From the NCBI GenBank assembly GCA_032718475.1, contig JAUCBJ010002482.1:1-50504 (forward strand): a DNA stretch of 50,504 nt. The letters are read 5' to 3'. How positions within the stretch are numbered: position 1 is the first letter of the stretch; each line of letters opens with the position of its first letter. Both the position numbers and the translations under genes were made by a program. Source of the stretch: Nemertoderma westbladi. Its lineage: Eukaryota > Animalia > Xenacoelomorpha. The notes below the pieces were generated by a model. It was given only the letters and a program-made list of their open reading frames with translations, ran no database searches and had not been told where the DNA came from. Shown in pieces: positions 1 through 49,167 of this stretch.

Positions 1-399
1 CATACACACGGACTGGTTTTGGGTGCCTCAGGTAAGGAGGATTGATTGCATTAGTTTAGTGTCCGTCTTCCACCTATCCCCCCCTACACACGGACTGGTT
101 TTGGGTGGCCTCAGGTAAGGAGGATTGATTGCATTAGTTTCTAGTGTCCGTCTTCCACCTACTCCCCCTACACACGGACTGGTTTTGGGTGCCCTCAGGT
201 AAGGAGGATTGATTGCATTAGTTTTAGTGTCCGTCTTCCACCTACTCCCCCTACACACGGACTGGTTTTGGGTGCCTCAGGTAAGGAGGATTGATTGCAT
301 TAGTTTAGTGTCCGTCTTCCACCTACTCCCCTACACACGGACTGGTTTTGGGTGCCTCAGGTAAGGAGGATTGATTGCGTTACTTTAGTGTCCGTCTTA
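1..399 (+). repeat. 80-84-bp tandem repeat (about 5 copies, cut by the window edge) containing an exon end and a splice donor
   Basis: Unit ...cttccacctactccccctacacacggactggttttgggtgcctcag|gtaaggaggattgattgcattagtttagtgtccgt. Confidence 0.9.
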
Positions 400-634
400 C
401 AACGCTATGCTCATTACCCTGTTGGACTTACAGAGTTAGTAGCTGTTCTATTTATTATATGGTCATATTCGATTTGAATAGCTCCATCTGTTGCATGTGA
501 TTAAATATTTCGGAACTTTCCCAGTGAACAAACTAACGAACACAAAAAATGTTTATTTTTATTTATCTCTGTGTAATTTTATATATTTATTTATGCCACC
601 CCCCCCCCCCCCCCCCCCCCCCTCCCTTATACAG

Positions 635-765
635 GTAATTACACCCCAGGTTCCGTAGTCCACTACGGATGTTCTTTTGGTATGCAACCTGTTGGGGATA
701 CAGTTACAGAATGCGGTAACAATGGTCAATGGGCCGAGGTCAAATACAGTTGCATTGAGGAAGAA
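635..765 (+). CDS. Exon of giant CCP/LDLa gene (second half of a CCP)
   Basis: Poly-C tract then acag|gt at 634/635; reads (G)NYTPGSVVHYGCSFGMQPVGDTVTECGNNGQWAEVKYSCIEEE; gtgagt donor at 766. Not in the ORF track. Confidence 0.88.
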
Positions 766-3700
766 GTGAGTTAAACGATACAACAACAACAAATAATAAT
801 GGTTTAACGAGTTATTTATATCAGCGCGAAGTTAAAAATTAAGGTTACACTTCCGTATTTCTATCCAACTAAATATATTATTGTTATAGCATATTCAGGG
901 CCAATCTAACTCTGGTCAGAGCGGCCCTGGGCAGTCTCCGCAGGTTGAATGTATCCCTCCGAACTTAAAAGTGGAGCGTGGTAAACTGCTGACGAAAACT
1001 ACGGAGACGTCGTATAGGGAAGGTGCGAAGATGGATGTGGGATGTATTGAAGGTAAGTTAACAGAGACAAGGAAGGTACAAAGATTGATGTGGGATGTGT
1101 TGAAGGTAAGTTACAGAGACGAGGAAGGTACAAAGATTGATGTGGGATGTGTTGAAGGTAAGTTACAGAGACAAGGAAGGTACAAAGATTGATGTGGGAT
1201 GTGTTGAAGATAAGTTACAGAGACAATGAAGGTACAAAGATTGATGTGGGATGTGTTGAAGGTAAGTTACAGAGACAAGGAAGGTACAAAGATTGATGTG
1301 GGATGTGTTGAAGATAAGTTACAGAGACAATCAAGGTACAAAGATTGATGTGGGATGTGTTGAAGGTAAGTTACAGAGACAAGGAAGGTACAAAGATTGA
1401 TGTGGGATGTGTTGAAGGTAAGTTACAGAGACAAGGAAGGTACAAAGATTGATGTGGGATGTGTTGAAGGTAAGTTACAGAGACAATCAAGGTACAAAGA
1501 TTGATGTGGGATGTGTTGAAGGTAAGTTACAGAGACAAGGAAGGTACAAAGATTGATGTGGGATGTGTTGAAGGTAAGTTAACAGAGACAAGGAAGGTAC
1601 AAAGATTGATGTGGGATGTGTTGAAGATAAGTTACAGAGACAAGCAAGGTACAAAGATTGATGTGGGATGTGTTGAAGGTAAGTTAACAGAGACAAGGAA
1701 GGTACAAAGATTGATGTGGGATGTGTTGAAGGTAAGTTACAGAGACAAGGAAGGTACAAAGATTGATGTGGGATGTGTTGAAGGTAAGTTAACAGAGACA
1801 AGGAAGGTACAAAGATTGATGTGGGATGTGTTGAAGGTAAGTTACAGAGACAAGGAAGGTACAAAGATTGATGTGGGATGTGTTGAAGATAAGTTACAGA
1901 GACAATCAAGGTACAAAGATTGATGTGGGATGTGTTGAAGGTAAGTTAACAGAGACAAGGAAGGTACAAAGATTGATGTGGGATGTGTTGAAGATAAGTT
2001 ACAGAGACAATCAAGGTACAAAGATTGATGTGGGATGTGTTGAAGGTAAGTTAACAGAGACAAGGAAGGTACAAAGATTGATGTGGGATGTGTTGAAGAT
2101 AAGTTACAGAGACAATCAAGGTACAAAGATTGATGTGGGATGTGTTGAAGGTAAGTTACAGAGACAAGGAAGGTACAAAGATTGATGTGGGATGTGTTGA
2201 AGGTAAGTTACAGAGACAAGGAAGGTACAAAGATTGATGTGGGATGTGTTGAAGGTAAGTTAACAGAGACAAGGAAGGTACAAAGATTGATGTGGGATGT
2301 GTTGAAGATAAGTTACAGAGACAAGGAAGGTACAAAGATTGATGTGGGATGTGTTGAAGGTAAGTTACAGAGACAAGGAAGGTACAAAGATTGATGTGGG
2401 ATGTGTTGAAGGTAAGTTAACAGAGACAAGGAAGGTACAAAGATTGATGTGGGATGTGTTGAAGGTAAGTTACAGAGACAAGGAAGGTACAAAGATTGAT
2501 GTGGGATGTGTTGAAGATACGTTACAGAGACGAGGAAGGTACAAAGATTGATGTGGGATGTGTTGAAGGTAAGTTACAGAGACGAGGAAGGTACAAAGAT
2601 TGATGTGGGATGTGTTGAAGATAAGTTACAGAGACAATCAAGGTACAAAGATTGATGTGGGATGTGTTGAAGGTAAGTTACAGAGACAAGGAAGGTACAA
2701 AGATTGATGTGGGATGTGTTGAAGATAAGTTACAGAGACAATCAAGGTACAAAGATTGATGTGGGATGTGTTGAAGGTAAGTTACAGAGACGAGGAAGGT
2801 ACAAAGATTGATGTGGGATGTGTTGAAGGTAAGTTACAGAGACGAGGAAGGTACAAAGATTGATGTGGGATGTGTTGAAGGTAAGTTACAGAGACGAGGA
2901 AGGTACAAAGATTGATGTGGGATGTGTTGAAGATAAGTTACAGAGACAATCAAGGTACAAAGATTGATGTGGGATGTGTTGAAGGTAAGTTACAGAGACA
3001 AGGAAGGTACAAAGATTGATGTGGGATGTGTTGAAGATACGTTACAGAGACAATCAAGGTACAAAGATTGATGTGGGATGTGTTGAAGGTAAGTTAACAG
3101 AGACAAGGAAGGTACAAAGATTGATGTGGGATGTGTTGAAGGTAAGTTACAGAGACAAGGAAGGTACAAAGATTGATGTGGGATGTGTTGAAGGTAAGTT
3201 ACAGAGACGAGGAAGGTACAAAGATTGATGTGGGATGTGTTGAAGGTAAGTTTACAGAGACAAGGAAGGTACAAAGATTGATGTGGGATGTGTTGAAGGT
3301 AAGTTAACAGAGACAAGGAAGGTACAAAGATTGATGTGGGATGTGTTGAAGATACGTTACAGAGACAATCAAGGTACAAAGATTGATGTGGGATGTGTTG
3401 AAGGTAAGTTAACAGAGACAAGGAAGGTACAAAGATTGATGTGGGATGTGTTGAAGATAAGTTACAGAGACAATCAAGGTACAAAGATTGATGTGGGATG
3501 TGTTGAAGGTAAGTTAACAGAGACAAGGAAGGTACAAAGATTGATGTGGGATGTGTTGAAGATACGTTACAGAGACAATCAAGGTACAAAGATTGATGTG
3601 GGATGTGTTGAAGGTAAGTTAACAGAGACAAGGAAGGTACAAAGATTGATGTGGGATGTGTTGAAGATAAGTTACAGAGACAATCAAGGTACAAAGATTG

Positions 3701-6700
3701 ATGTGGGATGTGTTGAAGGTAAGTTACAGAGACAAGGAAGGTACAAAGATTGATGTGGGATGTGTTGAAGATACGTTACAGAGACAATCAAGGTACAAAG
3801 ATTGATGTGGGATGTGTTGAAGGTAAGTTAACAGAGACAAGGAAGGTACAAAGATTGATGTGGGATGTGTTGAAGGTAAGTTACAGAGACAAGGAAGGTA
3901 CAAAGATTGATGTGGGATGTATTGAAGGTAAGTTACAGAGACGAGGAAGGTACAAAGATTGATGTGGGATGTGTTGAAGGTAAGTTTACAGAGACAAGGA
4001 AGGTACAAAGATTGATGTGGGATGTGTTGAAGGTAAGTTAACAGAGACAAGGAAGGTACAAAGATTGATGTGGGATGTGTTGAAGGTAAGTTACAGAGAC
4101 GAGGAAGGTACAAAGATTGATGTGGGATGTGTTGAAGATACGTTACAGAGACAATCAAGGTACAAAGATTGATGTGGGATGTGTTGAAGGTAAGTTAACA
4201 GAGACAAGGAAGGTACAAAGATTGATGTGGGATGTGTTGAAGATAAGTTACAGAGACAATCAAGGTACAAAGATTGATGTGGGATGTGTTGAAGGTAAGT
4301 TACAGAGACAAGGAAGGTACAAAGATTGATGTGGGATGTGTTGAAGGTAAGTTACAGAGACGAGGAAGGTACAAAGTTGATGTGGGATGTATTGAAGGTA
4401 AGTTACAGAGACAATCAAGGTACAAAGATTGATGTGGGATGTGTTGAAGGTAAGTTAACAGAGACAAGGAAGGTACAAAGATTGATGTGGAATGTGTTGA
4501 AGGTAAGTTACAGAGACGAGGAAGGTACAAAGATTGATGTGGGATGTGTTGAAGGTAAGTTACAGAGACAATCAAGGTACAAAGATTGATGTGGGATGTG
4601 TTGAAGATAAGTTACAGAGACAAGGAAGGTACAAAGATTGATGTGGGATGTGTTGAAGGTAAGTTACAGAGACAATCAAGGTACAAAGATTGATGTGGGA
4701 TGTGTTGAAGGTAAGTTAACAGAGACAAGGAAGGTACAAAGATTGATGTGGGATGTGTTGAAGGTAAGTTACAGAGACAAGGAAGGTACAAAGATTGATG
4801 TGGGATGTGTTGAAGGTAAGTTACAGAGACGAGGAAGGTACAAAGATTGATGTGGGATGTGTTGAAGGTAAGTTACAGAGACAAGGAAGGTACAAAGATT
4901 GATGTGGGATGTGTTGAAGGTAAGTTACAGAGACAAGGAAGGTACAAAGATTGATGTGGGATGTGTTGAAGGTAAGTTACAGAGACAAGGAAGGTACAAA
5001 GATTGATGTGGGATGTGTTGAAGGTAAGTTAACAGAGACAAGGAAGGTACAAAGATTGATGTGGGATGTGTTGAAGGTAAGATACAGAGACGAGGAAGGT
5101 ACAAAGATTGATGTGGGATGTGTTGAAGGTAAGTTACAGAGACAAGGAAGGTACAAAGATTGATGTGGGATGTGTTGAAGGTAAGTTAACAGAGAAAAGG
5201 AAGGTACAAAGATTGATGTGGGATGTGTTGAAGGTAAGTTACAGAGACAAGGAAGGTACAAAGATTGATGTGGGATGTGTTGAAGGTAAGTTAACAGAGA
5301 AAAGGAAGGTACAAAGATTGATGTGGGATGTGTTGAAGGTAAGTTACAGAGACGAGGAAGGTACAAAGATTGATGTGGGATGTGTTGAAGATACGTTACA
5401 GAGACAATCAAGGTACAAAGATTGATGTGGGATGTGTTGAAGGTAAGTTAACAGAGAAAAGGAAGGTACAAAGATTGATGTGGGATGTGTTGAATATAAG
5501 TTACAGAGACAAGGAAGGTACAAAGATTGATGTGGGATGTGTTGAAGGTAAGTTAACAGAGACAATCAAGGTACAAAGATTGATGTGGGATGTGTTGAAG
5601 ATAAGTTACAGAGACAATGAAGGTACAAAGATTGATGTGGGATGTGTTGAAGGTAAGTTAACAGAGACAAGGAAGGTACAAAGATTGATGTGGGATGTGT
5701 TGAAGATACGTTACAGAGACAATCAAGGTACAAAGATTGATGTGGGATGTGTTGAAGGTAAGTTAACAGAGACAAGGAAGGTACAAAGATTGATGTGGGA
5801 TGTGTTGAAGGTAAGTTAACAGAGAAAAGGAAGGTACAAAGATTGATGTGGGATGTGTTGAAGGTAAGTTAACAGAGACAAGGAAGGTACAAAGATTGAT
5901 GTGGGATGTGTTGAAGGTAAGTTACAGAGACAAGATACAAATATTGATGTGGGATGTGTTGAAGATAAGTTACAGAGACAATGAAGGTACAAAGATTGAT
6001 GTGGGATGTGTTGAAGGTAAGTTAACAGAGAAAAGGAAGGTACAAAGATTGATGTGGGATGTGTTGAAGGTAAGTTAACAGAGAAAAGGAAGGTACAAAG
6101 ATTGATGTGGGATGTGTTGAAGGTAAGTTAACAGAGACAAGGAAGGTACAAAGATTGATGTGGGATGTGTTGAAGGTAAGTTAACAGAGACAAGGAAGGT
6201 ACAAAGATTGATGTGGGATGTGTTAAAGATAAGTTACAGAGACAATCAAGGTACAAAGATTGATGTGGGATGTGTTGAAGGTAAGTTTACAGAGACAAGG
6301 AAGGTACAAAGATTGATGTGGGATGTGTTGGAGGTAAGTTTACAGAGACAAGGAAGGTACAAAGATTGATGTGGGATGTGTTGAAGGTAAGTTAACAGAG
6401 ACAAGGAAGGTACAAAGATTGATGTGGGATGTATTGAAGGTAAGTTACAGAGACAATCAAGGTACAAAGATTGATGTGGAATGTGTTGAAGGTAAGTTTA
6501 CAGAGACAAGGAAGGTACAAAGATTGATGTGGGATGTGTTGAAGGTAAGTTTACAGAGACAAGGAAGGTACAAAGATTGATGTGGGATGTGTTGAAGGTA
6601 AGTTAACAGAGACAAGGAAGGTACAAAGATTGATGTGGGACGTGTTGAAGATACGTTACAGAGACAATCAAGGTACAAAGATTGATGTGGGATGTGTTGA

Positions 6701-9700
6701 AGGTAAGTTAACAGAGACAAGGAAGGTACAAAGATTGATGTGGGATGTGTTGAAGATAAGTTACAGAGACAATCAAGGTACAAAGATTGATGTGGGATGT
6801 GTTGAAGGTAAGTTAACAGAGACAAGGAAGGTACAAAGATTGATGTGGGATGTGTTGAAGATAAGTTACAGAGACAATCAAGGTACAAAGATTGATGTGG
6901 GATGTGTTGAAGGTAAGTTAACAGAGACAAGGAAGGTACAAAGATTGATGTGGGATGTGTTGAAGATAAGTTACAGAGACAATCAAGGTACAAAGATTGA
7001 TGTGGGATGTGTTGAAGGTAAGTTAACAGAGACAAAGAAGGTACAAAGATTGATATGGGATGTGTTGAAGATAAGTTACAGAGACAATCAAGGTACAAAG
7101 ATTGATGTGGGATGTGTTGAAGGTAAGTTTACAGAGACAAGGAAGGTACAAAGATTGATGTGGGATGTGTTGAAGGTAAGTTACAGAGACAAGGAAGGTA
7201 CAAAGATTGATGTGGGATGTGTTGAAGGTAAGTTAACAGAGACAAGGAAGGTACAAAGATTGATGTGGGATGTGTTGAAGGTAAGTTACAGAGACAAGAT
7301 ACAAATATTGATGTGGGATGTGTTGAAGATAAGTTACGGAGACAATGAAGGTACAAAGATTGATGTGGGATGTGTTGAAGGTAAGTTAACAGAGAAAAGG
7401 AAGGTACAAAGATTGATGTGGGATGTGTTGAAGGTAAGTTAACAGAGAAAAGGAAGGTACAAAGATTGATGTGGGATGTGTTGAAGGTAAGTTAACAGAG
7501 ACAAGGAAGGTACAAAGATTGATGTGGGATGTGTTGAAGGTAAGTTAACAGAGACAAGGAAGGTACAAAGATTGATGTGGGATGTGTTGAAGATAAGTTA
7601 CAGAGACAATCAAGGTACAAAGATTGATGTGGGATGTGTTGAAGGTAAGTTTACAGAGACAAGGAAGGTACAAAGATTGATGTGGGATGTGTTGAAGGTA
7701 AGTTTACAGAGACAAGGAAGGTACAAAGATTGATGTGGGATATGTTGAAGGTAAGTTTACAGAGACAAGGAAGGTACAAAGATTGATGTGGGATGTGTTG
7801 AAGGTAAGTTAACAGAGACAAGGAAGGTACAAAGATTGATGTGGGATGTGTTGAAGATACGTTACAGAGACAATCAAGGTACAAAGATTGATGTGGGATG
7901 TGTTGAAGGTAAGTTAACAGAGAAAAGGAAGGTACAAAGATTGATGTGGGATGTGTTGAAGATAAGTTACAGAGACAATCAAGGTACAAAGATTGATGTA
8001 GGATCTGTTGAAGGTAAGTTAACAGAGACAAGGAAGGTACAAAGATTGATGTGGGATGTGTTGAAGATAAGTTACAGAGACAATCAAGGTACAAAGATTG
8101 ATGTGGGATGTGTTGAAGGTAAGTTAACAGAGACAAGGAAGGTACAAAGATTGATGTGGGATGTGTTGAAGATAAGTTACAGAGACAATCAAGGTACAAA
8201 GATTGATGTGGGATGTGTTGAAGGTAAGTTAACAGAGACAAGGAAGGTACAAAGATTGATGTGGGATGTGTTGAAGATAAGTTACAGAGACAATCAAGGT
8301 ACAAAGATTGATGTGGGATGTGTTGAAGGTAAGTTAACAGAGACAAGGAAGGTACAAAGATTGATATGGGATGTGTTGAAGATAAGTTACAGAGACAATC
8401 AAGGTACAAAGATTGATGTGGGATGTGTTGAAGGTAAGTTTACAGAGACAAGGAAGGTACAAAGATTGATGTGGGATGTGTTGAAGGTAAGTTACAGAGA
8501 CAAGGAAGGTACAAAGATTGATGTGGGATGTGTTGAAGGTAAGTTACAGAGACAAGGAAGGTACAAAGATTGATGTGGGATGTGTTGAAGGTAAGTTAAC
8601 AGAGACAATCAAGGTACAAAGATTGATGTGGGATGTGTTGAAGGTAAGTTACAGAGACGAGGAAGGTACAAAGATTGATGTGGGATGTGTTGAAGGTAAG
8701 TTACAGAGACGAGGAAGGTACAAAGATTGATGTGGGATGTGTTGAAGTTAAGTGAATTTCAGATGTAAGGTGCGAAGGTGGATGCGGGATGTTAATACAG
8801 TAGTGCTGACAATTACTTTATTATGTTTTTTAGGTTACCAAGTCAGAAATGCAAAGGTCACGGAGACAGTATGCACCGAAGATGGGACATGGAGTCCTGT
8901 AGATTACACGTGCGAACGGGTTAATTGTAATAGCCCACCCCCAGATGCGCCTAATAACGTGGTTATAAATGGACACCCCGAGTTGAGGCTGGTTTACAGT
9001 TGTCGTCGGGGTTGGAAGGGGGTTGCTGACATGGGTTCCGTAGAGGTTGTATGCGCCCCTGGAGGGGAGTGGGATCCGGATACCGTAACCTTGGAGTGCG
9101 AACAGAGAACGGGACCAGGGAAGGAGTGCGGTCGAGCGCCAGATCCTCCAGCACATGGGGTCATCCTAACGGATGGGTCGAAAGAAAATAGCGACACTGT
9201 CGACCATTCTGAAATATTTGCTATTATGTTATCTGGGAAACGCGGATTGTGGCAAAAATACATTAGTGGTGATGTCCTGAATTATGGCTGTGAAGATGGA
9301 TTTTCAGTCACAGGTATTAATTAAACTAAAATCATTATACCTGAGTTCTATGTATGCTATAAATAATTATGTAACTTAACATAAGGATTTAATAACACAA
9401 TGTTACTAAGGGTCAAATATTAATGGCCGATTCCTCGCTAGTGAAAATAGATTCACATAAACAATTAGCTATTATATGCGATCAATTAAATAGTTCCGCT
9501 AGCGAGATCAGAAATCCTGAGCCATAACCTGGGGACATAAATCCGGAATCCGGAAATCCGGAATTTGGTTACACTTACAACGGTTGCAATTATTTATTAT
9601 ACATTTACTTAAACTAACTATTGCAGGAACACAAACTGTGACAGGGTGCAACGAGAAAGGCCAATGGGAGATAGCCCCACAATATTCCTGCTCAGAAATC

Positions 9701-39700: not shown

Positions 39701-42700
39701 ATGTAAATCTATGGTTGTGTAGAACATATGTAAATCTACGGTTGTGTAGAACATATGTAAATCTACGGTTGCGTAGAACATATATAAATCTACGGTTGTG
39801 TAGAACATATATATATCTACGGTTGTGTAGAACATATGTAAATCTATGGTTGTGTAGAACATATGTAAATCTACGGTTGTGTAGAACATATGTAAATCTA
39901 CGGTTGTGTAGAACATATGTAAATCTACGGTTGTGTAGAACATATGTATATCTACGGTTGTGTAGAACATATGTAAATCTACGGTTGTGTAGAACATATG
40001 TAAATCTACGGTTGTGTAGAACATATGTATATCTACGGTTGTGTAGAACATATGTAAATCTACGGTTGTGTAGAACATATGTAAATCTACGGTTGTGTAG
40101 AACATATATAAATCTACGGTTGTGTAGAACATATGTAAATCTACGGTTGTGTAAAAATACGGTTGTACTTTCATAAATATTCCTTCCTCTTACATTCCTA
40201 TAGAAACGCGAGTGTCTGGACGGAGCCGATGAGTTACACTGTCCGCCGCTAGGGGTCGCTCTAGAACATCCTTCCTACCTCAAGGCGGTTAGGAAGGCGT
40301 GTCCCCAGCCCCCGCCAGGGTCTGTAGTACTCAACGGACGACATATGAACCCGAAGGGCCGGTACATCGAGGGGGACACCGCGGTCTACGGTTGTCGCCC
40401 TGGTTACATAGTCTCCGGTATGGCACTCACCACAGTGGTCTGTATGAGTAACGGCAGTTGGGATGGACTCCCAAGGTATATATGTCTGATGAACAATAAT
40501 TCCGAGTGCAGCTTTAAGTGTCGGAACGGAGACTGTCTGAGGGCCGATCAGGTCTGTAACGGTCGGGCGGACTGCGACGACAGCCTCGATGAGACCTACT
40601 GCCCTGACAGGGGGCAAATGGTGAGACCCGTCGTAAAGGACACCTGTACGAGGCCGGGAGGTGTAAACATCCCTCACAGTGTACAGCTAACAGACGATAA
40701 TAAAGTATATAATATAGGTTAGTATATCCAATACATCTAGCTAACGTCAGTGTGATCTTCACAGGACGAAGTAGGCAGCTTAGCACACTGATATAAATTT
40801 GAACCGTTATCTACTTATCCTCTAGCGGCAGGCAGGGGAACTGTTGCTCCCCCACGCAAATTATATTTCATACTATTGACAGACAACATGAGTAGAAAGT
40901 TTAGTTTAAATTCATTAAAGCTTCACTTTGTTTGTTAGTCTTCAAACATTTGCCGACAGCGGTATGCTTAGCTCGCTTACTTCCGAGTATTTTTCATGTA
41001 TTTTTTGCATTTAAAAGAGCGTTTAATTCTAAGCTTCATTGAAACATACCCAAGGTAATAATAACCTGAATCATAGACGTTGCATGAGTGATTTCCACCC
41101 GCCAAATGGCGCCAATTTCTCTAGAATACTCCATTTCAATAATCTTGGCATTAATTAACAAATAAATAATTAATAGGTTATTTTTTGGCTATTTATAATG
41201 GTTTGTTTCTACAAAGTACATAAAGTTGTATGGGCGGACAATAAAGCTGTATGGACGGGATATAAAGCTGTATGGGCGGTCTATAAAGCTGTATGGGCTG
41301 GCTATAAGGTTGTATGATGGGACTATATAGATGTAGGATCGGGTTAGTTGAGTGGGCGAGAGAGTAATTAATGTTGGGACAATAATTATTTATAAATTAA
41401 TAACAGGTGATATAATTCGGTACGGATGTTTGAAGTACTACACGGTGTCTGGGCTGGAATTAACAGCTATCCAATGTAAAGCTAACGGAAGATGGAGCGG
41501 GGAGCCCAACTTTCTGTGTCTCAACACGAGAGACCCAACGTGCGCCCTGACCTGCGACCAGGGGCTGACCTGCGTTAGTGTGGGGGAGGTCTGCGACAGC
41601 GTCAAGCATTGTCTCGACACTGCGGACGAACTATCCTGCCCGGTAGATGGCGCTGCGATAAGTAAACCTAAGTACGAACAGCGAGTGAAGGATAAATGTG
41701 GATCTATTCCCGAAGTTTACGTAAAATTCGGTAAAGTTACATCCGGGAAGAAAAGTTCCTCGTATGTGGTCGGTGATTCGATAAAGTGGGGCTGTATCGA
41801 AGGGTTTGTGGCGACAACAGGAGGTGGTAAACTCAGTATGGAGTGTCGCAGTGGAGGAGAATGGGAGATAAAACCCTCGTACGTGTGTCTACACGCCAGC
41901 GACGGGAGTTGTCCACTAAAATGCGACGACGATGTGTGCGTGACTGCGAACCGGATCTGTAACAAAGTCATCGACTGTCTGGACCAAACGGATGAGTCAT
42001 CGTGCGGTGAGGGTTTCGCGATACCGAGTTACAAGAGCAAAGCAAAGTGCAAAGCGATCCCATCCTTAAACATAGCTAACAGCGTGTTGCTACGCAACCG
42101 AGGTAAACAAGAGTACGAAGAGGGTGAGACATTGGAGTTCGGTTGCTACGAGGGGTTTATAGTTAGTGGCATGTCGGTAGTTGATACGGTTTGTAGCTCT
42201 AAAGGCACCTGGAGTCAGTCCCCTAACTTCCTGTGTCTGGACAGTAAGAATTACCAGTGCGCCCATCTGTGCGATAAGGGAACCTGTATCCCCGCCAACA
42301 AGGTCTGTAACGACATCATCGATTGTTTCGATAAAACCGACGAGATCTCGTGTCCGGAGCCGGGCTCCGAGATCGAACGTCCCCCTTTCGTTCCCAAGAC
42401 CCGGGCAACCTGCGGGAGCCCGCCCGGGGACTACGTGAAACACGGGGTGCTGCTCTACGGGAGTCACCCGCTGCCGTACAACCAGGGGGATTCGATAACG
42501 TTCGGCTGCGTCGCGGGGTACATGGTGTCCGGGGCCGGAGTCGTACAGATCAGCTGCACCAGTAGCGCAGTCTGGTCGGCCTCACCGGACTATCTGTGTC
42601 TGGTGGAGAAGGACTTCTACTGCGCCATGCGGTGCGCCAACCAGCGGTGTGTACCCGCGGATAAAATATGTGATGGTGAGTAATGCAATACTGTTAATGT

Positions 42701-45700
42701 AATTAGTACCGGTACTTTTTTATTCACTCAATTTATTAGTAATAAAAAGTTTGAAACTGAAAGTAAAATAATTATTTAACTTGAAAATGTACATTCAAAT
42801 TTAAAATAAAATAGTAAAACCCAACCGTAAATTTTATATAAGAATGGTATTGGTGAAAATATCGAGACTTGAAAAATACCGTGATATTTTTACTCTCGTT
42901 ATTTTTCATGTCTCGCTATTTTTCAATATAACCATAAGAATTGTTAACTGAAAGTTAATTCTGGATATAATTATGGTTAAGTAAAATTAAACAATAACGC
43001 GATATATTTCCATCTAGGTCTGGTATTCTGCGACGATGAATCCGATGAGTCATCCTGTCCTGCGAGCGGGAGCGGTACGCCTCTAGCGTTACCATTCCGA
43101 GGTCCGATAGACCCGGCGTTGGCCTGTCCCGAACCGCCGTACGTCCCGATACGCAACGCGGTTATAGAGGAAGGACTGCACACACGGGCCTACAGACCCA
43201 ACGACCTGGTCCGTTACGGGTGCGCGGATGGATTCATAGTCTCCGGCATAGAGGAGACGGAGTTGAAGTGTCTCAATATCGGCGTCTGGAGCGGTGTCCC
43301 CAAGTATATATGTCTGCGGGAGCGGGATTACCAGTGCGCGTTGGAGTGCGACACGGGACTGTGCGTACCCGCAAATAAAATCTGCGACGGTAAACCCGAA
43401 TGCAAAGATATATCGGATGAAACTTACTGTCCTACCGACGGGAGCAGAATAAACCTCCCGCAGTCGCCCCGGAGTAAAAGGACCTGCAGGAAACCCGAGA
43501 GAGTAGAGACGAAACACAGCGTTATCGTATCGGGGATAGCGAAGTCGGAGTATCTACAGGGGGAGAGGATCGTGTACGGATGCGAGAAGGGATGGATGCG
43601 GTCGGGGTTACAACTGGTAGAAGTGGTCTGTAGGAAGGACGGCAGTTGGAGCGATAAACCCAGCTTTATATGTCTCGACGCAGCCTCTTACCATTGCGCT
43701 ATGCGATGCGATGTGGACACCTGCGTGCGGGCCGATAAGATCTGTAACAACATTGTGGACTGTATTGATACCGCGGACGAGATATCCTGTCCCAAAGGGG
43801 GTCTCTCGATCCCGAGACCGGTGTTCGCCCCAAGGAAGAGGGTTCACTGTCCGTCCTTACCTCGGGTCGACATATCCAACTCGTTTATAGAGTCCGGAAG
43901 TCATGCGGAACCTTACATAGAGGGCGACGTGGTCACCTACAACTGTCTGAGTAACTACTCCCCCTACGGAGCCAATGTGAACTCGATAAAATGTGTGGAA
44001 CACAGAAACAGAGGTAAAATTTACATTAATATTTCCCCACATTTTAATATTTAGAAAAATAAATTTGGTTAAAATGTAGTTCAGGTAATTAAAATTTTTT
44101 CCTTTGTTTATTTTAATAATTTTTTTCAGATACTTAAAATGTTTTCGACTCGTTGAATCATAAATATAAATGCTTTAATATATTATATTTATTACCAGTA
44201 TATTATATTTCACGCCGCGAAATATAGTGAAGTTGGACTACAGGCACTATATTTGACGTATTAATTTATAATTACTTATTACTATTAGTGTTACTTATTA
44301 TTATGGTGTAAAACGTTACCACACAGGACAATGGGAAGGGCGACCGAAGTTTGTATGCATCGAGAGGAACAGACCCCGTTGCGCGCTGAAGTGCGACAAC
44401 CTGTGTGTCGGAATGGAGTTTATCTGCGACGGTCGGGACGACTGCAGGAATAGGGAGGATGAGATATACTGCGGACCGATACGGAGATGTTTGGGGTTAC
44501 CGGAGCCGCCTCAATTCGCGAAAGTGCTGACACCAGCTGTACCAAAGGGTAAGACTGTGGGAGCAGTACGGCATGGGACAGTGTGAGATGGGACAGTGCG
44601 AGATGGGACAGTGGGGAATGGGACAGTGGGGAATGGGACAGTGAGAATTGGGACAGTAAGAAATGGGACAGTGGGGGATGGGACAGTACGGGTTGAGATA
44701 GTGCGAGATGGGACAGCGCGGGTTGGCGGGATTAGTTTACTTGAATTATCTTAATAATTTATTGTCTTCCTTTACACATTATTTACAGCGACTCAACACG
44801 TGGCCCGATACGGTTGTGTGAATGGATACGGGCCAACGAATCCTCTCGGAACCGTTATACATTGTCGCAACGGTCAGTGGACACAGCCGTTCTTCGAGTG
44901 TAAGAAAACCTGTCCTCGTCCGCCATTACTAGACGTTGCTCACGCAGTAATAAAGAAAGGAGCTAGGAAAGGAAATAGTTTCAGTTTGGGAGGCGATGTG
45001 ATAATTTACGGTTGTAAAAGGGGTTATAAACCAATAGGTTAGTACAGGTACGCAAATAGTTTCAGTTTGGTAGGCGATATGATAATTTACGGTTGTAAAA
45101 GGGGTTATAAACCATTAGGTTAGTACCGGTACGCAAATAGTTTCAGTTTGGGAGGCGATGTGATAATTTACGGTTGTAAAAGGGCTTATAAACCAATAGG
45201 TTAGTACCGGTACGCAAATAGTTTCAGTTTGGGAGGCGATGTGATAATTTACGGTTGTAAAAGGGGTTATAAACCAATAGGTTAGTACCGGTACGCAAAT
45301 AGTTTCAGTTTGGGAGGCGATGTGATAATTTACGGTTGTAAAAGGGGTTATAAACCAATAGGTTAGTACCGGTACGCAAATAGTTTCAGTTTGGGAGGCG
45401 ATGTGATAATTTACGGTTGTAAAAGGGCTTATAAACCAATAGGTTAGTACCGGTACGCAAATAGTTTCAGTTTGGGAGGCGATGTGATAATTTACGGTTG
45501 TAAAAGGGCTTATAAACCAATAGGTTAGTACCGGTACGCAAATAGTTTCAGTTTGGGAGGCGATGTGATAATTTACGGTTGTAAAAGGGGTTATAAACCA
45601 ATAGGTTAGTACCGGTACGCAAATAGTTTCAGTTTGGGAGGCGATGTGATAATTTACGGTTGTAAAAGGGGTTATAAACCAATAGGTTAGTACCGGTACG

Positions 45701-46355
45701 CAAATAGTTTCAGTTTGGGAGGCGATGTGATAATTTACGGTTGTAAAAGGGCTTATAAACCAATAGGTTAGTACCGGTACGCAAATAGTTTCAGTTTGGG
45801 AGGCGATGTGATAATTTACGGTTGTAAAAGGGGTTATAAACCAATAGGTTAGTACCGGTACGCAAATAGTTTCAGTTTGGGAGGCGATGTGATAATTTAC
45901 GGTTGTTAGACAATTAATATAACATATGCAATGCACCCCACCCCACCCCACCCCACACAGTGTATTACAGTGTATTACGGAGTGTATTGCAGTGTATTAC
46001 ATGTATTACAGTGTATTACATGTATTGCAGTGTATTACATATGTATTACAGTGTATTACATATGTATTACAGTGTACAGTGTATTAAGGAGTGTATTACA
46101 TAATATTATATTATTACATGATAAAACTTAGATTACGCTATTTCTAATTATACATACATCCCCACAGGGCCACGATTATCTATATCTTGTGGTAACAACG
46201 GAGAATGGAGTGGAGAGGCGGCCTTTACATGCCGCAGTATGGAGTGCGCGGTGAGATGCGACGAGAGGAAGCTCTGTATAAAGAGCGAGTACATCTGCGA
46301 TGGAGTTTACGATTGTATGGATTTATCGGACGAATCAAACTGTGTTGACGAGTAG
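635..46355 (+). CDS. Giant multi-exon sushi/CCP + LDLa repeat protein, 5'-partial (19 exons in window, about 4,860 codons, about 52 CCP and 11 LDLa modules); probably extracellular
   Basis: Manual splicing at GT-AG sites gives one continuous frame: 635-765, 890-1052, 8834-9313, 9627-11450, 12031-12210, 12559-12948, 13683-14858, 15189-15863, 16341-16979, 32356-33348, 33972-34571, 34934-38622, 39346-39546, 40204-40717, 41407-42675, 43018-44013, 44327-44548, 44789-45037, 46168-46355. Intron phases match at every junction and split modules are completed (C-x-x-P...HG...Y-x-C-x-x-G-Y...C...G-x-W...C; C-D-G-x-x-D-C-x-D-x-S-D-E-x-x-C). No transmembrane segment seen. Confidence 0.88.
890..1052 (+). 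CDS. Exon of giant CCP/LDLa gene
   Basis: ttatag acceptor (an in-frame alternative ttcag would start the exon at 899); ...VECIPPNLKVERGKLL...SYREGAKMDVGCIE-G; gtaagt donor at 1053. Confidence 0.85.
1020..8790 (+). repeat. 52/53-bp minisatellite (about 147 copies) filling an intron
   Basis: Unit gaaggtacaaagattgatgtgggatgtgttgaag|gtaagttacagagacaag; variants include gataag/gatacg and ttaac/ttac. Confidence 0.97.
8834..9313 (+). CDS. Exon of giant CCP/LDLa gene
   Basis: ttttttag acceptor; GYQVRNAKVTETVCTEDGTW completes the CCP begun in 890-1052; donor gtatt at 9314. Confidence 0.88.
9627..11450 (+). CDS. Exon of giant CCP/LDLa gene (CCPs plus a long charged insertion)
   Basis: ttgcag acceptor, gtgag donor at 11451; lies in ORF 9584..11470. 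Confidence 0.9.
11660..11985 (+). mobile_element. Degraded 3' fragment of a related RTE-like element
   Basis: LLWQP..NKH...TFLCRLSKDT.L....L...M.D...W resembles LVLWQP..NKHGG..TFLRRILKDTGL....L...MGDRELW at the end of the 25901-27281 element. Boundaries approximate. Confidence 0.6.
12031..12210 (+). CDS. Exon of giant CCP/LDLa gene
   Basis: cactag acceptor; GIATISVSTRCEANGLW...AKYSCDK; gtgtgt donor. Confidence 0.85.
12215..12432. repeat. 41-bp tandem repeat (about 5 copies) at an intron 5' end
   Basis: Unit gtattttagtgcgacaatgtattttaatgcgctaacctttg. Confidence 0.92.
12559..12948 (+). CDS. Exon of giant CCP/LDLa gene
   Basis: atgcag acceptor; GFVQVGESNNVTCLKDGVW...VSYGCERGFI; gtacct donor. 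Confidence 0.85.
13683..14858 (+). CDS. Exon of giant CCP/LDLa gene (CCPs plus an acidic insertion)
   Basis: attcag acceptor; VEGNSLLMSECGANGTW...LQYYCPENFNLI; gtaagt donor at 14859. Confidence 0.88.
14640..14820 (+). repeat. Coding 60-bp tandem repeat (3 copies)
   Basis: DNDAETETDNNAIEIEPLST x3 within exon 13683-14858. Confidence 0.92.
15189..15863 (+). CDS. Exon of giant CCP/LDLa gene
   Basis: ttccag acceptor, gtaact donor; CCP motifs in ORF 15161..15883. Confidence 0.88.
16341..16979 (+). CDS. Exon of giant CCP/LDLa gene
   Basis: ttccag acceptor; ends mid-CCP at LGCPVGHKFE-G; gtgagt donor at 16980. Confidence 0.88.
17292..18011 (-). CDS. MTRES1: Mitochondrial transcription rescue factor 1 (C6orf203)-like S4-domain RNA-binding protein, intronless
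   Basis: Basic, acid-poor N-terminus (transit-peptide-like), an acidic stretch, then an S4-like motif RVDGVFAKAMGISR...KGRVIYN...KSGQRLKEGDVVDL and C-terminal ITVIRQKSL; layout recognised from the MTRES1 family. Confidence 0.78.
   Translation of the reverse strand: MAWVNYFINRLPIPPLRASHQPPKFLSTNTTQLHPKSFYTKVPSTNTTQLHPKSFYTKVPITPLSVVFPHLFAPVSIQSLRRYKRTKPSESEDDDDTEYVSIDEFLSETGNVDHVDVDNDDVDDDNIKDSIPRGSVLRTVSSPGTRVDGVFAKAMGISRESVGKEILKGRVIYNRRVLTKSGQRLKEGDVVDLYVNKDTDKNTVTLRRLTVKEISENRKGNLNITVIRQKSLTVNKSEL
18332..18468. repeat. 35-bp tandem repeat (about 4 copies) between C11orf54 and MTRES1
   Basis: Unit gcaccaaaaaataatatagtaataattgacaacct. Confidence 0.9.
18545..19513 (-). CDS. C11orf54: C11orf54/PTD012 ester hydrolase homologue (DUF1907), intronless
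   Basis: CPDL..PPWGLA..GICG, VGGPPNLVP, GAGAGP, HVMP, DPGLDLRVEHTHCHS...GGHYHGD (Zn-binding His cluster), C-terminal HSVGRD. First ATG at 19513; the ORF track starts upstream at a TTG. Confidence 0.92.
   Translation of the reverse strand: MPVETYQLTVPALQEIANVLEQSLISNYGCVSVSVVPCPDLSVPPWGLASAGICGRPRIVDVGGPPNLVPVVDLTKDYNLERIAESAELPGGLLIGAGAGPNKRTGVNCELMVNVRARGGHQTFRNESRVARTLEPRTQLSDRWMILEKLQESYNTTDCSLLVNMLLSDGEPGEVLRVSVSERTGSVSSFPTAIRLALADHYSTRAVALGGVFVMRSGVARIHVMPPSFSQTPLTSDPQVNDWLEFFSLPAPIVCYSEFVSYDPGLDLRVEHTHCHSVNPPSGGGHYHGDETEDVVYEGYFVPADWLYRIDRPSVSHSVGRD
20437..20578 (-). mobile_element. Headless copy of the SINE-like body
   Basis: Near-identical to 24733-24874 (tgtttggatcatactatc...aatgtttgtgcga), with a few substitutions. 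Confidence 0.7.
20831..21344. mobile_element. Non-autonomous inverted-repeat element (MITE- or Helentron-associated-like) with internal (ACG)n microsatellite
   Basis: Approximately 63-bp inverted repeats at 20848-20910 and 21269-21333, an internal direct repeat tggccctctagcgg, and (ACG)n at about 21203-21268; no coding capacity. Confidence 0.7.
21875..24052 (+). CDS. SLC30A5: Zinc transporter 5 (cation diffusion facilitator), intronless
   Basis: Long N-terminal multi-TM region followed by the CDF core: [31 protein letters not shown], His-rich loop [36 protein letters not shown]. Confidence 0.93.
   Translation: [725 protein letters not shown]
24733..24948 (-). mobile_element. tRNA-derived SINE-like element (longest copy)
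   Basis: Minus strand begins GTCACTGTAGTGTAATGGATATCGCG...GTCGTGGGTTCCAATC (Pol III A- and B-box-like), followed by an approximately 136-bp body also found at 20437 and 31936. Confidence 0.65.
25101..29602. repeat. 50-bp tandem satellite (about 16 + 46 copies) split by the RTE insertion
   Basis: Unit agtagtagaRgcattcaatgtgtgtgtctggactaacaacgctcaccaat. Confidence 0.97.
25901..27281 (-). mobile_element. 5'-truncated, frameshifted non-LTR retrotransposon (RTE-like reverse transcriptase)
   Basis: FRGISL..AKLYNRILLNRI, QNGFRKGR, FVDFFKAFDSV, GVLQGDTLAPFLF, DFADD, FCYLGS; frameshift near 26380 continues as VPVLLYGSPCW...RMLRRV; (TAG)n 3' tail at 25901-25911; 9-bp direct repeat acaacgcac at 25892-25900 and 27282-27290. 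Confidence 0.9.
30133..31686 (+). CDS. LAP3: Cytosol leucyl aminopeptidase (peptidase M17), intronless
   Basis: QNLARELAETPAN, VGKGVTFDSGG, MRGDMGG, NTDAEGRL signature, DVATLTGA, WAHIDIAG, GMTGRPTRTL. First ATG at 30133. Confidence 0.93.
   Translation: MHRILQNLRPSITSRDKHRTYSTEHRRSGLVLGVYGKTFTPEAEQFNWQHGGLLHKVLGNSEPLKVGGTMVLHGVGEHTATCLVGLGERREVPNNDRDPSNEEVPNDEREGRDEAADNIRRGVAAGCRALQTLKIPDISIDPCGRPQAAAEGGYLGTFSYDGLKAEAKRRVRVNLVGLGADGGGWEVGRVYATAQNLARELAETPANLLTPSGFADRTLTELQGLPEVEVLVRDREWIAAERMGAFLSVSQGSVEPPVFLEVRYTGGAAQQPPLVLVGKGVTFDSGGLSIKPANSMPPMRGDMGGAAAVVAAVSAVARLHGHINVVALVPLTENMISGSATRPSDVVTARNGLTIQVDNTDAEGRLILADALSYSATYQPRAVLDVATLTGAMSVALGEGAAGVFSRSRSLWEQLETAGYRTGDRLWRFPLYKLYEEQVSESRLADVNNVTTSPGAGACTAAAFLGKFVETDNWAHIDIAGVMESKGGEYQVKGMTGRPTRTLVQYLMNQAEIGGDN
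31936..32071 (-). mobile_element. Headless copy of the SINE-like body
   Basis: Appears identical to 24736-24871. Confidence 0.7.
32356..33348 (+). CDS. Exon of giant CCP/LDLa gene (first after the gene-containing intron)
   Basis: ttacag acceptor; GFTDATINLRCLSDSQWNMAPSTSLNC supplies Cys3, Trp and Cys4 of the CCP left open at 16979; gtacgt donor. Confidence 0.88.
33972..34571 (+). CDS. Exon of giant CCP/LDLa gene
   Basis: ttccag acceptor; DDIKDTTVVCTGMGVW...; gtaagg donor. Confidence 0.88.
34934..38622 (+). CDS. 3.7-kb exon of giant CCP/LDLa gene (about 13 CCPs and the first LDLa)
   Basis: ttacag acceptor, aag|gtaagt donor; ORF 34924..38646. Confidence 0.92.
39346..39546 (+). CDS. Exon of giant CCP/LDLa gene
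   Basis: ccacag acceptor; KNGYKLVYTCESGF...CIDIDRVCNG; gtaagt donor. Confidence 0.86.
39556..40166. repeat. 27-bp tandem repeat (about 22 copies) filling an intron
   Basis: Unit tgtagaacatatgtaaatctacggttg. Confidence 0.95.
40204..40717 (+). CDS. Exon of giant CCP/LDLa gene
   Basis: ctatag acceptor; KRECLDGADELHC completes the LDLa; gttagt donor. Confidence 0.86.
41407..42675 (+). CDS. Exon of giant CCP/LDLa gene (alternating CCP-LDLa)
   Basis: taacag acceptor; GDIIRYGC...DKICD; gtgagt donor. Confidence 0.9.
43018..44013 (+). CDS. Exon of giant CCP/LDLa gene (alternating CCP-LDLa)
   Basis: atctag acceptor; GLVFCDDESDESSC...; gtaaaa donor. Confidence 0.88.
44327..44548 (+). CDS. Exon of giant CCP/LDLa gene
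   Basis: acacag acceptor; GQWEGRPKFVC...CDGRDDCRNREDEIYC...; gtaaga donor. Not in the ORF track. Confidence 0.86.
44555..44720. repeat. Degenerate approximately 15-bp G-rich repeat at an intron 5' end
   Basis: Recurring atgggacagtg. Confidence 0.8.
44789..45037 (+). CDS. Exon of giant CCP/LDLa gene
   Basis: ttacag acceptor; ATQHVARYGCVNGY...IIYGCKRGYKPI; gttagt donor. Confidence 0.86.
44973..45905 (+). repeat. 81-bp tandem repeat (about 11.5 copies) spanning an exon end and donor
   Basis: The first copy is the last 65 nt of exon 44789-45037 plus 16 nt of intron. Confidence 0.95.
46168..46355 (+). CDS. Probable last coding exon of giant CCP/LDLa gene
   Basis: ccacag acceptor; GPRLSISCGNNGEW...CDGVYDCMDLSDESNCVDE then TAG. 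Confidence 0.82.
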
Positions 46356-46357
46356 GG

Positions 46358-47892
46358 GTTCTAGAAAACTGTTGGGGAAGAATTCCAGAACAAAGTTACA
46401 GTGCGGGAAGAATTCTAGAACAAAGTTACAGGGCGGGAAGAATTCTAGAATAAAGTTACAGTGCGGGAAGAATTCCAGAACAAAGTTACAGTGCGGGAAG
46501 AATTCCAGAACAAAGTTACAGTGCGGGAAGAATTCCAGAACAAAGTTACAGTGCGGGAAGAATTCTAGAATAAAGTTACAGTGCGGGAAGAATTCTAGAA
46601 TAAAGTTACAGTGCGGGAAGAATTCTAGAACAAAGTTACATTGCGGGAAGAATTCTAGAATAAAGTTACAGTGCGGGAAGAATTCTAGAATAAATTTACA
46701 TTGCGGGAAGAATTCTAGAATAAAGTTACAGTGCGGGAAGAATTCTAGAACAAAGTTACAGTGCGGGAAGAATTCTAGAATAAAGTTACAGTGCGGGAAG
46801 AATTCTAGAACAAAGTTACAGTGCGGGAAGCATTCTAGAATAAAGTTACAGTGCGGGAAGAATTCTAGAATAAAGTTACAGTGCGGGAAGAATTCTAGAA
46901 TAAAGTTACAGTGCGGGAAGAATTCTAGAACAAATTTACATTGCGGGAAGAATTCTAGAATAAAGTTACAGTGCGGGAAGAATTCCAGAACAAAGTTACA
47001 GTGCGGGAAGAATTCTAGAATAAAGTTACAGTGCGGGAAGAATTCCAGAACAAAGTTACAGTGCGGGAAGAATTCCAGAACAAAGTTACAGTGCGGGAAG
47101 AATTCTAGAATAAAGTTACAGTGCGGGAAGAATTCCAGAACAAAGTTACAGTGCGGGAAGAATTCCAGAACAAAGTTACAGTGCGGGAAGAATTCTAGAA
47201 TAAAGTTACAGTGCGGGAAGAATTCTAGAACAAAGTTACATTGCGGGAAGAATTCTAGAATAAAGTTACAGTGCGGGAAGAATTCCAGAACAAAGTTACA
47301 GTGCGGGAAGAATTCCAGAACAAAGTTACAGTGCGGGAAGAATTCTAGAATAAAGTTACAGTGCGGGAAGAATTCTAGAACAAAGTTACATTGCGGGAAG
47401 AATTCTAGAATAAAGTTACATTGCGGGAAGAATTCTAGAATAAAGTTACAGTGCGGGAAGAATTCTAGAATAAAGTTACAGTGCGGGAAGAATTCTAGAA
47501 CAAAGTTACAGTGCGGGAAGAATTCTAGAATAAAGTTACAGTGCGGGAAGAATTCTAGAACAAAGTTACAGTGCGGGAAGAATTCTAGAATAAAGTTACA
47601 GTGCGGGAAGAATTCTAGAACAAAGTTACAGTGCGGGAAGCATTCTAGAATAAAGTTACAGTGCGGGAAGAATTCTAGAATAAAGTTACAGTGCGGGAAG
47701 AATTCTAGAATAAAGTTACAGTGCGGGAAGAATTCTAGAACAAATTTACATTGCGGGAAGAATTCTAGAATAAAGTTACAGTGCGGGAAGAATTCTAGAA
47801 TAAAGTTACAGTGCGGGAAGAATTCTAGAATAAAGTTACAGTGCGGGAAGAATTCTAGAATAAAGTTACAGTGCGGGAAGAATTCTAGAACA
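46358..47892. repeat. 30-bp tandem repeat (about 51 copies) directly after the stop codon
   Basis: Unit aattcYagaaYaaagttacagtgcgggaag. Confidence 0.96.
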
Positions 47893-48793
47893 TTGTTTTG
47901 GAAGAATTATTGAACACAGTTTGGAAATGAATTCTAGAACACAGTTGAGGAATAATATGAGAAAGAAATTGTTGCCAAAATAAGAGTAGAGAGTTGCACT
48001 TGTTCAAGACTGTAGGTGGGGACGATTTGTTGTAAGTATAACTGTTTCTCTCGGATTTTGGTCTATTTAGTGATCCAATTAAATATTGTGTAATTTTAAT
48101 TTTACTAAATTATTACGAACAAATAAATAATAAACATAATTGATTTTGTTATATTATTGTTTAATTTTAACAGCCCTTGCGCGGCGTGTACAACAAACCT
48201 GATATGTAATATCACGATGTTACATTCCGATAATTTTCTCACAGAAACAAAAACTCAATAATAATTATAATAATGTTTGATTACCTGTTATATAATGACC
48301 AATCGTATAATTTATATAGGCAGGAGGGTAACTGACCTGAGAGAAGCCACCACGGTGGGTTTCTTTTCTTTAAAACGACCAATAACAGCGCCAATAACTA
48401 CAGCCGCATAGGGCGAGAACTTTTTCCGCAACCCCACAGCTAGTTGGTGCAAGCATTTACCAGCAACAGTTACCAACATAACGTTAGAATCTTTCTGGAC
48501 AATCTAAATATCAAATAATAAATAAGTTAGTAGGAATAATAATTATTTTACGTTTAAAGATTTACAATACAATATTTACTTACGAAAATGTTTACTGTAC
48601 CTACCCTACTCTCTCTGCTACTCGTGGTGACTTCTACATTCAAACAGATCGTTTAACTTCGACACAACGATCAATTAGCTTTCAAGGTCCCCTGATCGGA
48701 ATGACAGAAGGGGGGGGGGGGGGGGGGGGGGTGACTGGATGCAATCCAACTTTACCAATCCGCTAAAAATTTCTAAAATTAGAGTAAATTCTT

Positions 48794-49167
48794 AAAAGTA
48801 AGTCAAAAAGTAAGTCAAAAAGTAAGTCAAAAAGTAAGTCAAAAAGTAAGTCAAAAAGTAAGTCAAAAAGTAAGTCAAAAAGTAAGTCAAAAAGTAAGTC
48901 AAAAAGTAAGTCAAAAAGTAAGTCAAAAAGTAAGTCAAAAAGTAAGTCAAAAAGTAAGTCAAAAAGTAAGTCAAAAAGTAAGTCAAAAAGTAAGTCAAAA
49001 AGTAAGTCAAAAAGTAAGTCAAAAAGTAAGTCAAAAAGTAAGTCAAAAAGTAAGTCAAAAAGTAAGTCAAAAAGTTAGTCAAAAAAGTAAGTCAAAAAGT
49101 AAGTCAAAAAGTAAGTCAAAAAGTAAGTCAAAAGGTAAGTCAAAAAGTAAGTCAAAAAGTAAGTCAA
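48794..49167. repeat. 12-bp tandem repeat (about 31 copies)
   Basis: Unit aaaaagtaagtc. Confidence 0.96.

What the first reader, a model, noticed from the sequence alone, without database searches (positions are those of the whole stretch)
1..49167. Tandem arrays repeatedly arise at, or amplify, splice donors and other RNA-processing signals of one gene
Seen: six unrelated intronic arrays are anchored at the 5' end of an intron. Three have units made of exon 3' end + GT donor + intron start (1-399, 1020-8790, 44973-45905). Three begin within about 10 nt of a donor (12215, 39556, 44555). A seventh array starts right after the stop codon and carries AATAAA, and an eighth (48794) is a GTAAGT 12-mer. 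The units share no sequence, so these are independent events with a common positional bias. Inference: either a mutational process tied to 5' splice sites, or a filter in which donor-spanning duplications survive because the most upstream donor still gives the correct mRNA. If functional, the arrays would be dense U1 snRNP landing pads; U1 binding is known to suppress premature polyadenylation in long genes.
Basis: partly seen in the sequence, partly recalled or inferred. Interest (0 to 1): 0.85.

Follow-up and report, generated by a model that had tools for sequence, protein, structure and literature searches.

The report
Mirage minisatellites crowd sushi-gene donors
In a giant animal sushi-domain gene, three exon ends with their splice signal are copied head-to-tail into the next intron (up to 148 times) and three other repeats start just inside very short introns; this is a repeat type already known from lancelets and human genes, likely harmless because the first signal is likely the one used.

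Summary
The gene model holds: 19 GT-AG introns give one open frame of 4,869 sushi/LDLa residues. Six of 11 independent non-coding arrays in its introns start at a donor, against 0.7 expected under uniform placement (P about 2e-5, window chosen post hoc). Only three copy the exon end plus GT; three start 4-9 nt inside. These six introns are very short once the array is collapsed (68-290 nt). Given that, and barring the last 35 nt, the excess is not significant (P 0.11-0.25). The GTAAGT 12-mer lies outside this gene model, antisense to a CKAP5-like exon's flank. AATAAA is in 28 of about 50 copies of the 3' array. U1 pads are unlikely: 40 of 148 copies lost the +1 G, and the one long complex intron has no donor array. 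The class is known ('mirage' minisatellites; human F7, CBS). This scan's unchecked notes report donor and acceptor arrays in many other windows of this genome, so the bias is likely not donor-specific. No genome or RNA run was available, so first-donor use is inferred. Why array-bearing introns are otherwise so short is unexplained.

The parts
1..46355 (+). Visible part of a giant sushi (CCP)/LDLa gene: 20 exons, 19 GT-AG introns, 4,869 aa to the stop at 46353-46355; the 5' end lies before the window
   Evidence: about 51 sushi-like and 11 LDLa-like matches; model not tested with RNA
3..398 (+). A1: 83-nt donor-spanning array (at least 4.8 copies; about 55 nt exon-derived + GTAAGG + intron start); start not visible
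1018..8753 (+). A2: 52/53-nt donor-spanning array, 148 copies (35 nt exon + 17-18 nt intron); first donor 1053; 40 copies lack the +1 G; an old diverged partial copy follows at about 8768-8794
12215..12438 (+). A3: 41-nt array starting 4 nt after donor 12211; no donor-like site at 6/9 or better
39551..40166 (+). A4: 27-nt array, about 22 copies, starting 4 nt after donor 39547 and ending 37-50 nt before the acceptor; 15 weak (6/9) donor-like sites
44558..44720 (+). A5: degenerate G-rich 15-nt array starting 9 nt after donor 44549; no donor-like site at 6/9 or better
44973..45906 (+). A6: 81-nt donor-spanning array, 11.5 copies (65 nt exon + 16 nt intron); first donor 45038; ends in a partial exon copy without a donor
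46375..47890 (+). 30-nt array, about 50 copies, starting 20 nt after the stop codon; AATAAA in 28 copies, AACAAA in 22
48794..49167 (.). 12-nt array, 31 copies, GTAAGT on + strand; outside the sushi gene model and antisense to the flank of a CKAP5-like exon
48336..48503 (-). Single CKAP5/XMAP215-like coding exon with AG and GT borders; no other CKAP5 exon found in the window
25101..29602 (.). Counter-example: two blocks of one 50-nt minisatellite (16 and 46 copies) flanking a reverse-transcriptase fragment in mid-intron 10, over 8 kb from the donor
41220..41343 (+). Counter-example: 21-nt array in intron 15, 502 nt from the donor, ending 63 nt before the acceptor
45957..46100 (+). Counter-example: 10/19-nt array in intron 19, ending 67 nt before the acceptor
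18332..18468 (.). Counter-example: 35-nt array in intron 10, about 80 nt past the stop of the nested DUF1907 gene

Best explanation
Three arrays are head-to-tail copies of an exon end plus its GT donor and three are ordinary minisatellites starting 4-9 nt inside very short introns; all six are likely neutral repeats that fill the free space of the intron and likely survive because splicing uses the first donor. Shown: the anatomy, the open frame through the first donor, the premature stops from later donors, the short intron skeletons, the G-rich sense strand, and homogenised interiors with diverged edges. Inferred: (1) a short G-rich segment is duplicated by slippage or repair, and donor regions are the G-richest sequence next to unconstrained intron; (2) unequal exchange or conversion expands and homogenises it, probably with loss of neighbouring intron sequence; (3) the array can reach or cross the donor at its 5' end, since an extra exon end downstream leaves the first donor and the mRNA intact, but it stops 37-120 nt short of the acceptor, where branch point and pyrimidine tract lie; (4) rare use of later donors would be cleared by nonsense-mediated decay. 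The donor bias would thus be mostly geometry plus filter, with a smaller compositional bias.
For: Open 4,869-aa frame using the first donors; sushi domains bridge 15 of 19 junctions. Later donors give premature stops in 105/106, 10/10 and 4/4. Collapsed lengths of the six introns are 290, 97, 165, 68, 92, 143 nt against 124-734 nt (and 12,193) for the other 13 (Mann-Whitney P 0.002). Given those lengths and a 35-nt bar at the 3' end, 4.3 of 11 donor starts are expected against 6 seen (P 0.11). Six arrays end 37-120 nt before an acceptor. 10 of 12 arrays have G>C on the + strand against skew -0.007 in array-free introns (P 0.015-0.02); donor-spanning 52-mers have 25% G, acceptor-spanning 20%, interiors 14%. 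In A2 the distal partial copy keeps three bases of the true exon that the interior has replaced, as described for mirage edges. Donors are not conserved: +1 G lost in 40 of 148 A2 units. Precedent for first-donor use and normal mRNA: PMC1557585, PMC3087553, PMC3902484.
Against: Under uniform placement the excess is strong (P 1.6e-5) and remains with G-rich seeds only (6 of 8, expected 1.5-1.8, P 0.0006-0.0014). The conditional test removes it only by taking the short skeletons as given, and the 35-nt bar is my assumption; without it P is 0.004-0.013. Why the array-bearing introns are otherwise the shortest is unexplained. All three spanning arrays end in a partial exon copy (about 27 and 42 nt in A2 and A6), more than a single slippage at short microhomology would leave. 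In human 6-16 and CBS, two pseudo-sites are used besides the authentic one, and one unchecked note reports splicing from an internal variant copy in this genome (e1-10614089). The +1 G loss in A2 is mostly one linked variant (34 of 39), so it is one or a few events.
Confidence: 0.6

Rival explanations
1. A transcription- or splicing-coupled mutational process seeds duplications at exon-intron borders in this animal (for example DNA breaks or slippage at R-loop-prone, G-rich sense-strand sequence where the spliceosome engages), and the growing array replaces the intron body.
For: Excess over uniform placement, P 1.6e-5, persisting for G-rich seeds. Sense-strand G skew in 10 of 12 arrays. Unusually short skeletons and out-of-phase distal ends. 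A seventh array at the stop codon. Unchecked notes of many junction arrays in this genome, one reporting 10 junctions in a 22-exon gene. The origin of mirages is called unclear in PMC3087553.
Against: One gene picked for this pattern; excess not significant in the conditional null with a 3' bar. Five of 11 arrays, including the second-largest family, are far from donors. No decayed exon-end copies in the 16 introns without a spanning array. No direct test of R-loops or breaks; the R-loop papers were seen only as a search listing.
Confidence: 0.24
2. The extra donors are used at a low, copy-number-dependent rate and tune the gene's output through unproductive splicing and nonsense-mediated decay.
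For: Nearly all later donors give premature stops. Pseudo-site use is reported for 6-16 and CBS, and a cited title links the CBS repeat to reduced activity. A2 holds 107 extra sites at 7/9 or better.
Against: No RNA evidence here. Three of six arrays carry no donor copy. Leakage, if any, need not be selected.
Confidence: 0.07
3. The arrays are selected U1 snRNP landing pads that suppress premature polyadenylation in a long gene.
For: A1, A2 and A6 hold 5, 108 and 12 sites matching the donor consensus at 7/9 or better. U1 suppression of premature cleavage is established (search listing only).
Against: A3 and A5 hold no site at 6/9 or better; A4 only 6/9 sites. 40 of 148 A2 copies lost the +1 G. 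Five of the six array introns have no AATAAA, while intron 10 (15.4 kb, 19 AATAAA, two same-strand nested genes) has no donor array. The 12-mer is outside the gene model.
Confidence: 0.05
4. The arrays, or their copy numbers, are assembly artefacts.
For: A1 copies differ mainly by homopolymer indels and the window starts inside it. No reads could be laid.
Against: A2 has 31 distinct unit types, linked variants in higher-order patterns and a diverged distal edge; eight unrelated units. Read error does not readily give this.
Confidence: 0.04

Closest known systems
Lancelet 'mirage' minisatellites (Adh3, globins BflGb6 and BflGb9, troponin C, PGBD5). PMC3087553: abstract, section 16 and passages read; PMC3902484: passages read; Adh3 and troponin C known only as cited there
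   Same: Tandem copies of a unit spanning an exon-intron border; several in one gene; units of tens of bases; homogenised interior with diverged edges; mRNA reported normal; origin called unclear
   Different: Copy number up to 148 (7.7 kb) against 2-7 in the globin and PGBD5 cases read; only donor-side examples in this gene while lancelet has both; three further arrays abut the donor without copying it; normal splicing not tested here
Human minisatellites whose first unit spans a donor: F7 IVS7 (37 bp, 5-9 copies), 6-16 (25 pseudo-sites), CBS IVS13 (15-20), lamin B2 (10-15), PDGF intron 4 (16-18). PMC1557585: abstract, passages and Discussion read
   Same: The authentic donor is followed by identical pseudo-sites; the most upstream one is used in F7, lamin B2 and PDGF
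   Different: Far more copies in A2 and three cases in one gene; length polymorphism and site use not tested here; 6-16 and CBS also use two downstream sites
U1 telescripting (search listing only; mechanism otherwise recalled)
   Same: Dense donor-like sites could bind U1 in a long gene
   Different: No sign of conservation of the GT, and no array where polyadenylation signals are dense

Membership tests
Mirage / junction-spanning minisatellite | Head-to-tail repeat whose unit spans an exon-intron boundary of the host gene | tested here: met
   A2 and A6 directly; A1 by in-frame continuity of its exon part with the next exon, start not seen
Mirage / junction-spanning minisatellite | Same criterion for A3, A4, A5, the 3' array and the 12-mer | tested here: not met
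   No significant likeness to their own exon ends: 11-55% of coding windows score as well (12-mer not in that test, it has no adjoining exon); they are ordinary minisatellites
Mirage / junction-spanning minisatellite | Copies reiterate the splice signal, many but not all intact | tested here: met
   GT kept in 108 of 148 A2 units, all 11 full A6 units and all 5 visible A1 copies
Mirage / junction-spanning minisatellite | Concerted evolution inside, edges excluded | tested here: met
   A2 modal unit differs from the exon copy at 4 of 33 coding bases; the distal partial copy keeps 3 exon bases
Mirage / junction-spanning minisatellite | mRNA spliced normally at the authentic site | tested here: inconclusive
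   Only frame logic; no RNA holder was listed
Mirage / junction-spanning minisatellite | Length variation between alleles or cells | not testable with these tools
   No second haplotype, genome or reads
U1 telescripting element | Conserved U1 sites placed ahead of cryptic polyadenylation signals | tested here: not met
U1 telescripting element | U1 binding and premature cleavage on U1 loss | not testable with these tools
   needs CLIP or knock-down data

The most novel reading that the evidence does not exclude
This animal has a transcription- or splicing-coupled mutational process that seeds tandem duplications at exon borders (donors here, acceptors elsewhere) and lets them replace the intron body, so that its satellites are built gene by gene from its own splice junctions.
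Probability: 0.22. Interest if true: 0.75.

Novelty: new member of a known kind. Interest (0 to 1): 0.36.

Why it matters
How mirage repeats arise is called unclear in the lancelet paper, and how one donor is chosen among identical copies has been tested on 5-9 copies in F7. A gene with three independent donor arrays, one of 148 copies, in a genome that seems rich in them is good material for both questions. This window adds two leads for a genome-wide test: array-bearing introns are otherwise the shortest, and arrays are G-rich on the sense strand. By itself it shows no new mechanism or function.

Tried and rejected
No whole genome is held, so the genome-wide test was not run. A search for longer relatives of the largest exon found none at E<=0.001 among 934 candidates (weak evidence). 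The metagenome scan gave one 25%-identical locus, L001, useless for intron ancestry. No Rfam match. Decayed 'ghost' mirages: exon-end or exon-start likeness was significant only in the three introns with spanning arrays, 3 of 38 tests; A3 shares an 8-nt word with its exon end, but 11% of coding windows do as well, so it was not counted as a mirage. A shared family origin of the units was rejected. tblastn with two lancelet CKAP5 proteins found one exon only. The ZnT5 search did not place the organism: about 45-50% identity over near-full length to vertebrates and several invertebrates alike. Literature searches for a genome-wide enrichment of tandem arrays at donors gave only the lancelet and human single-gene cases; passages of PMC10078293 did not address it. 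The original Adh3 and troponin C papers were not read, and the library lacks most subscription papers.

Full report
The host gene. The + strand carries the 3' part of a very large animal gene made of sushi (CCP) and LDL-receptor class A repeats (Pfam). I picked 19 GT-AG introns by reading the sequence. Splicing them out gives 14,610 nt and 4,869 codons with no internal stop, ending at the TAG at 46353-46355. As an independent check I built a profile from 26 sushi domains lying wholly inside single exons. It finds one domain spanning 15 of the 19 junctions, each scoring above either half alone. The four others are junction 1 (cut by the window edge), junction 2 (between domains) and junctions 14 and 16 (inside LDLa repeats). 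Near each array donor the chosen GT has the best consensus among those that keep the frame. The model was not tested with RNA or with an orthologue.

The arrays. All eight are present. A1 (3-398, 83 nt), A2 (1018-8753, 52/53 nt, 148 units) and A6 (44973-45906, 81 nt, 11.5 units) are copies of exon end + GT + intron start. The window begins inside A1, so its first copy is unseen. A3, A4 and A5 start 4, 4 and 9 nt after a donor and show no significant likeness to their exon ends. The units are unrelated. Arrays with lower scores and coding arrays were left out of all counts.

The seventh and eighth arrays. The 30-nt array starts 20 nt after the stop; AATAAA occurs in 28 copies and AACAAA in 22, and 7% of local non-coding 30-mers hold AATAAA. 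The 12-mer lies 2.4 kb past the stop. Its neighbour is a minus-strand exon at 48503-48336 with AG and GT borders that matches XMAP215-family structures (E 3e-14) and lancelet CKAP5 (65-67%). For that gene the GTAAGT is antisense. No + strand coding exon precedes the 12-mer; a non-coding exon cannot be excluded. The chance that one of nine such units holds GTAAGT on either strand is 0.15.

Is the donor bias more than chance? With each array collapsed to one unit and placed uniformly over all introns, 0.7 of 11 would start at a donor; 6 do (P 1.6e-5; 5 of 10 without A1, P 1e-4). The window was chosen for this pattern, so these values are optimistic. The six introns are very short once collapsed: 290, 97, 165, 68, 92 and 143 nt, against 124-734 nt and 12,193 nt for the other 13 (P 0.002; intron 14 is 81 nt if the degenerate tail is not counted). 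Given the host intron, P rises to 0.004-0.013, and to 0.11-0.25 if the last 35 nt are barred as branch point and pyrimidine tract, a figure I assumed. Several arrays simply run from the donor to 37-120 nt before the acceptor. Composition adds to this: 10 of 12 arrays have G>C on the + strand while array-free introns have no skew, and donor-spanning windows are G-richer (25%) than acceptor-spanning (20%) or interior ones (14%). Allowing only G-rich seeds raises the expectation from 0.8 to 1.5-1.8 of 8, still below 6 (P 0.0006-0.0014). No acceptor array is seen, but only 0.8 is expected (P 0.42).

How it likely works. Any later donor copy breaks the frame or meets a stop in 105 of 106 (A2), 10 of 10 (A6) and 4 of 4 (A1, relative to the first visible copy) cases. 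An intact gene therefore needs the first donor, which is what F7 IVS7 does experimentally (PMC1557585). The arrays look like ordinary turning-over minisatellites. A2 has 31 unit types; its interior differs from the exon at 4 of 33 coding bases, while a distal partial copy keeps three exon bases. That matches the edge exclusion described for lancelet mirages. All three spanning arrays end in a partial exon copy, which points to deletion at the distal end or to an offset seed duplication; I cannot tell these apart. I commit to neutral growth bounded by splicing constraints (0.6). Junction-coupled mutagenesis is the main rival (0.24), because the short skeletons and the residual excess are unexplained.

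U1 pads. A1, A2 and A6 hold 5, 108 and 12 sites matching a recalled 9-base donor consensus at 7/9 or better. A3 and A5 hold none at 6/9; A4 holds 15 at 6/9, the level of 10 of the 19 model donors. The +1 G is lost in 40 of 148 A2 units, mostly as one linked variant (34 of 39 in the 146 segments). Five of the six array introns have no AATAAA. Intron 10 has 19 and two same-strand nested genes, yet no donor array. I rate this reading at 0.05.

What is known. Tandem copies of exon-intron borders are published as 'mirages' in lancelet Adh3, globins, troponin C and PGBD5, at both 5' and 3' borders, with normal mRNA and unclear origin (PMC3087553 section 16; PMC3902484 passages). Human F7, 6-16, CBS, lamin B2 and PDGF are donor-spanning cases. 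I reached these papers through earlier notes of this scan and read them myself. Those notes, unchecked, describe donor arrays and acceptor arrays in many other windows of this genome; 66 and 71 of 79 noted windows fitted the loose word look-ups, of which I saw 8 per call. My searches found no paper on genome-wide enrichment. Supplements were not opened; those of PMC3087553 hold the repeat alignments and could refine the copy-number comparison.

Verdict. The core observation is real, the class is known, two of the eight arrays do not belong, and the functional reading is unsupported. New member of a known kind; interest 0.36.

Noticed in passing
window 16980-32355 (intron 10): This 15.4-kb intron holds four apparently single-exon housekeeping genes: MTRES1-like (18011-17292, -), DUF1907 (19513-18545, -), zinc transporter ZnT5/SLC30A5 (21875-24052, +) and an M17 aminopeptidase (30133-31686, +). 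Two run on the host strand. A sushi domain spans the intron.
   Followed up: partly
window 48503-48336 (-): A lone, intact CKAP5-like exon; no other CKAP5 exon in the window. If it is part of the real gene, the next intron exceeds 48 kb and contains the sushi gene with its four nested genes, and the previous intron contains the selenoprotein S gene; otherwise it is a stray copy.
   Followed up: partly
window 25899-27281 (-): A reverse-transcriptase (LINE-like) fragment sits between two blocks of the same 50-nt minisatellite.
   Followed up: partly
window 20440, 24737, 31937: Three near-identical copies of a dispersed element of about 135 nt inside intron 10.
   Followed up: no
window 21817, 49753, 49939, 50105: All four TAGGCCTA palindromes lie shortly before gene starts (ZnT5, selenoprotein S); possible promoter motif.
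   Followed up: no
window 50173-50504 (+): Start of a selenoprotein S gene, cut by the window end.
   Followed up: no
window 14640-14820 (+) and 17832-17934 (-): In-frame coding repeats of 60 nt (three copies, sushi gene) and 51 nt (two copies, MTRES1-like gene): exonic duplications survive when their length is a multiple of three.
   Followed up: no
window 1019-1051 versus A2 consensus: The four differences between the true exon and the array consensus read in frame as conservative changes (A to T, M to I, I to V); could be chance or a trace of an older exon allele.
   Followed up: no
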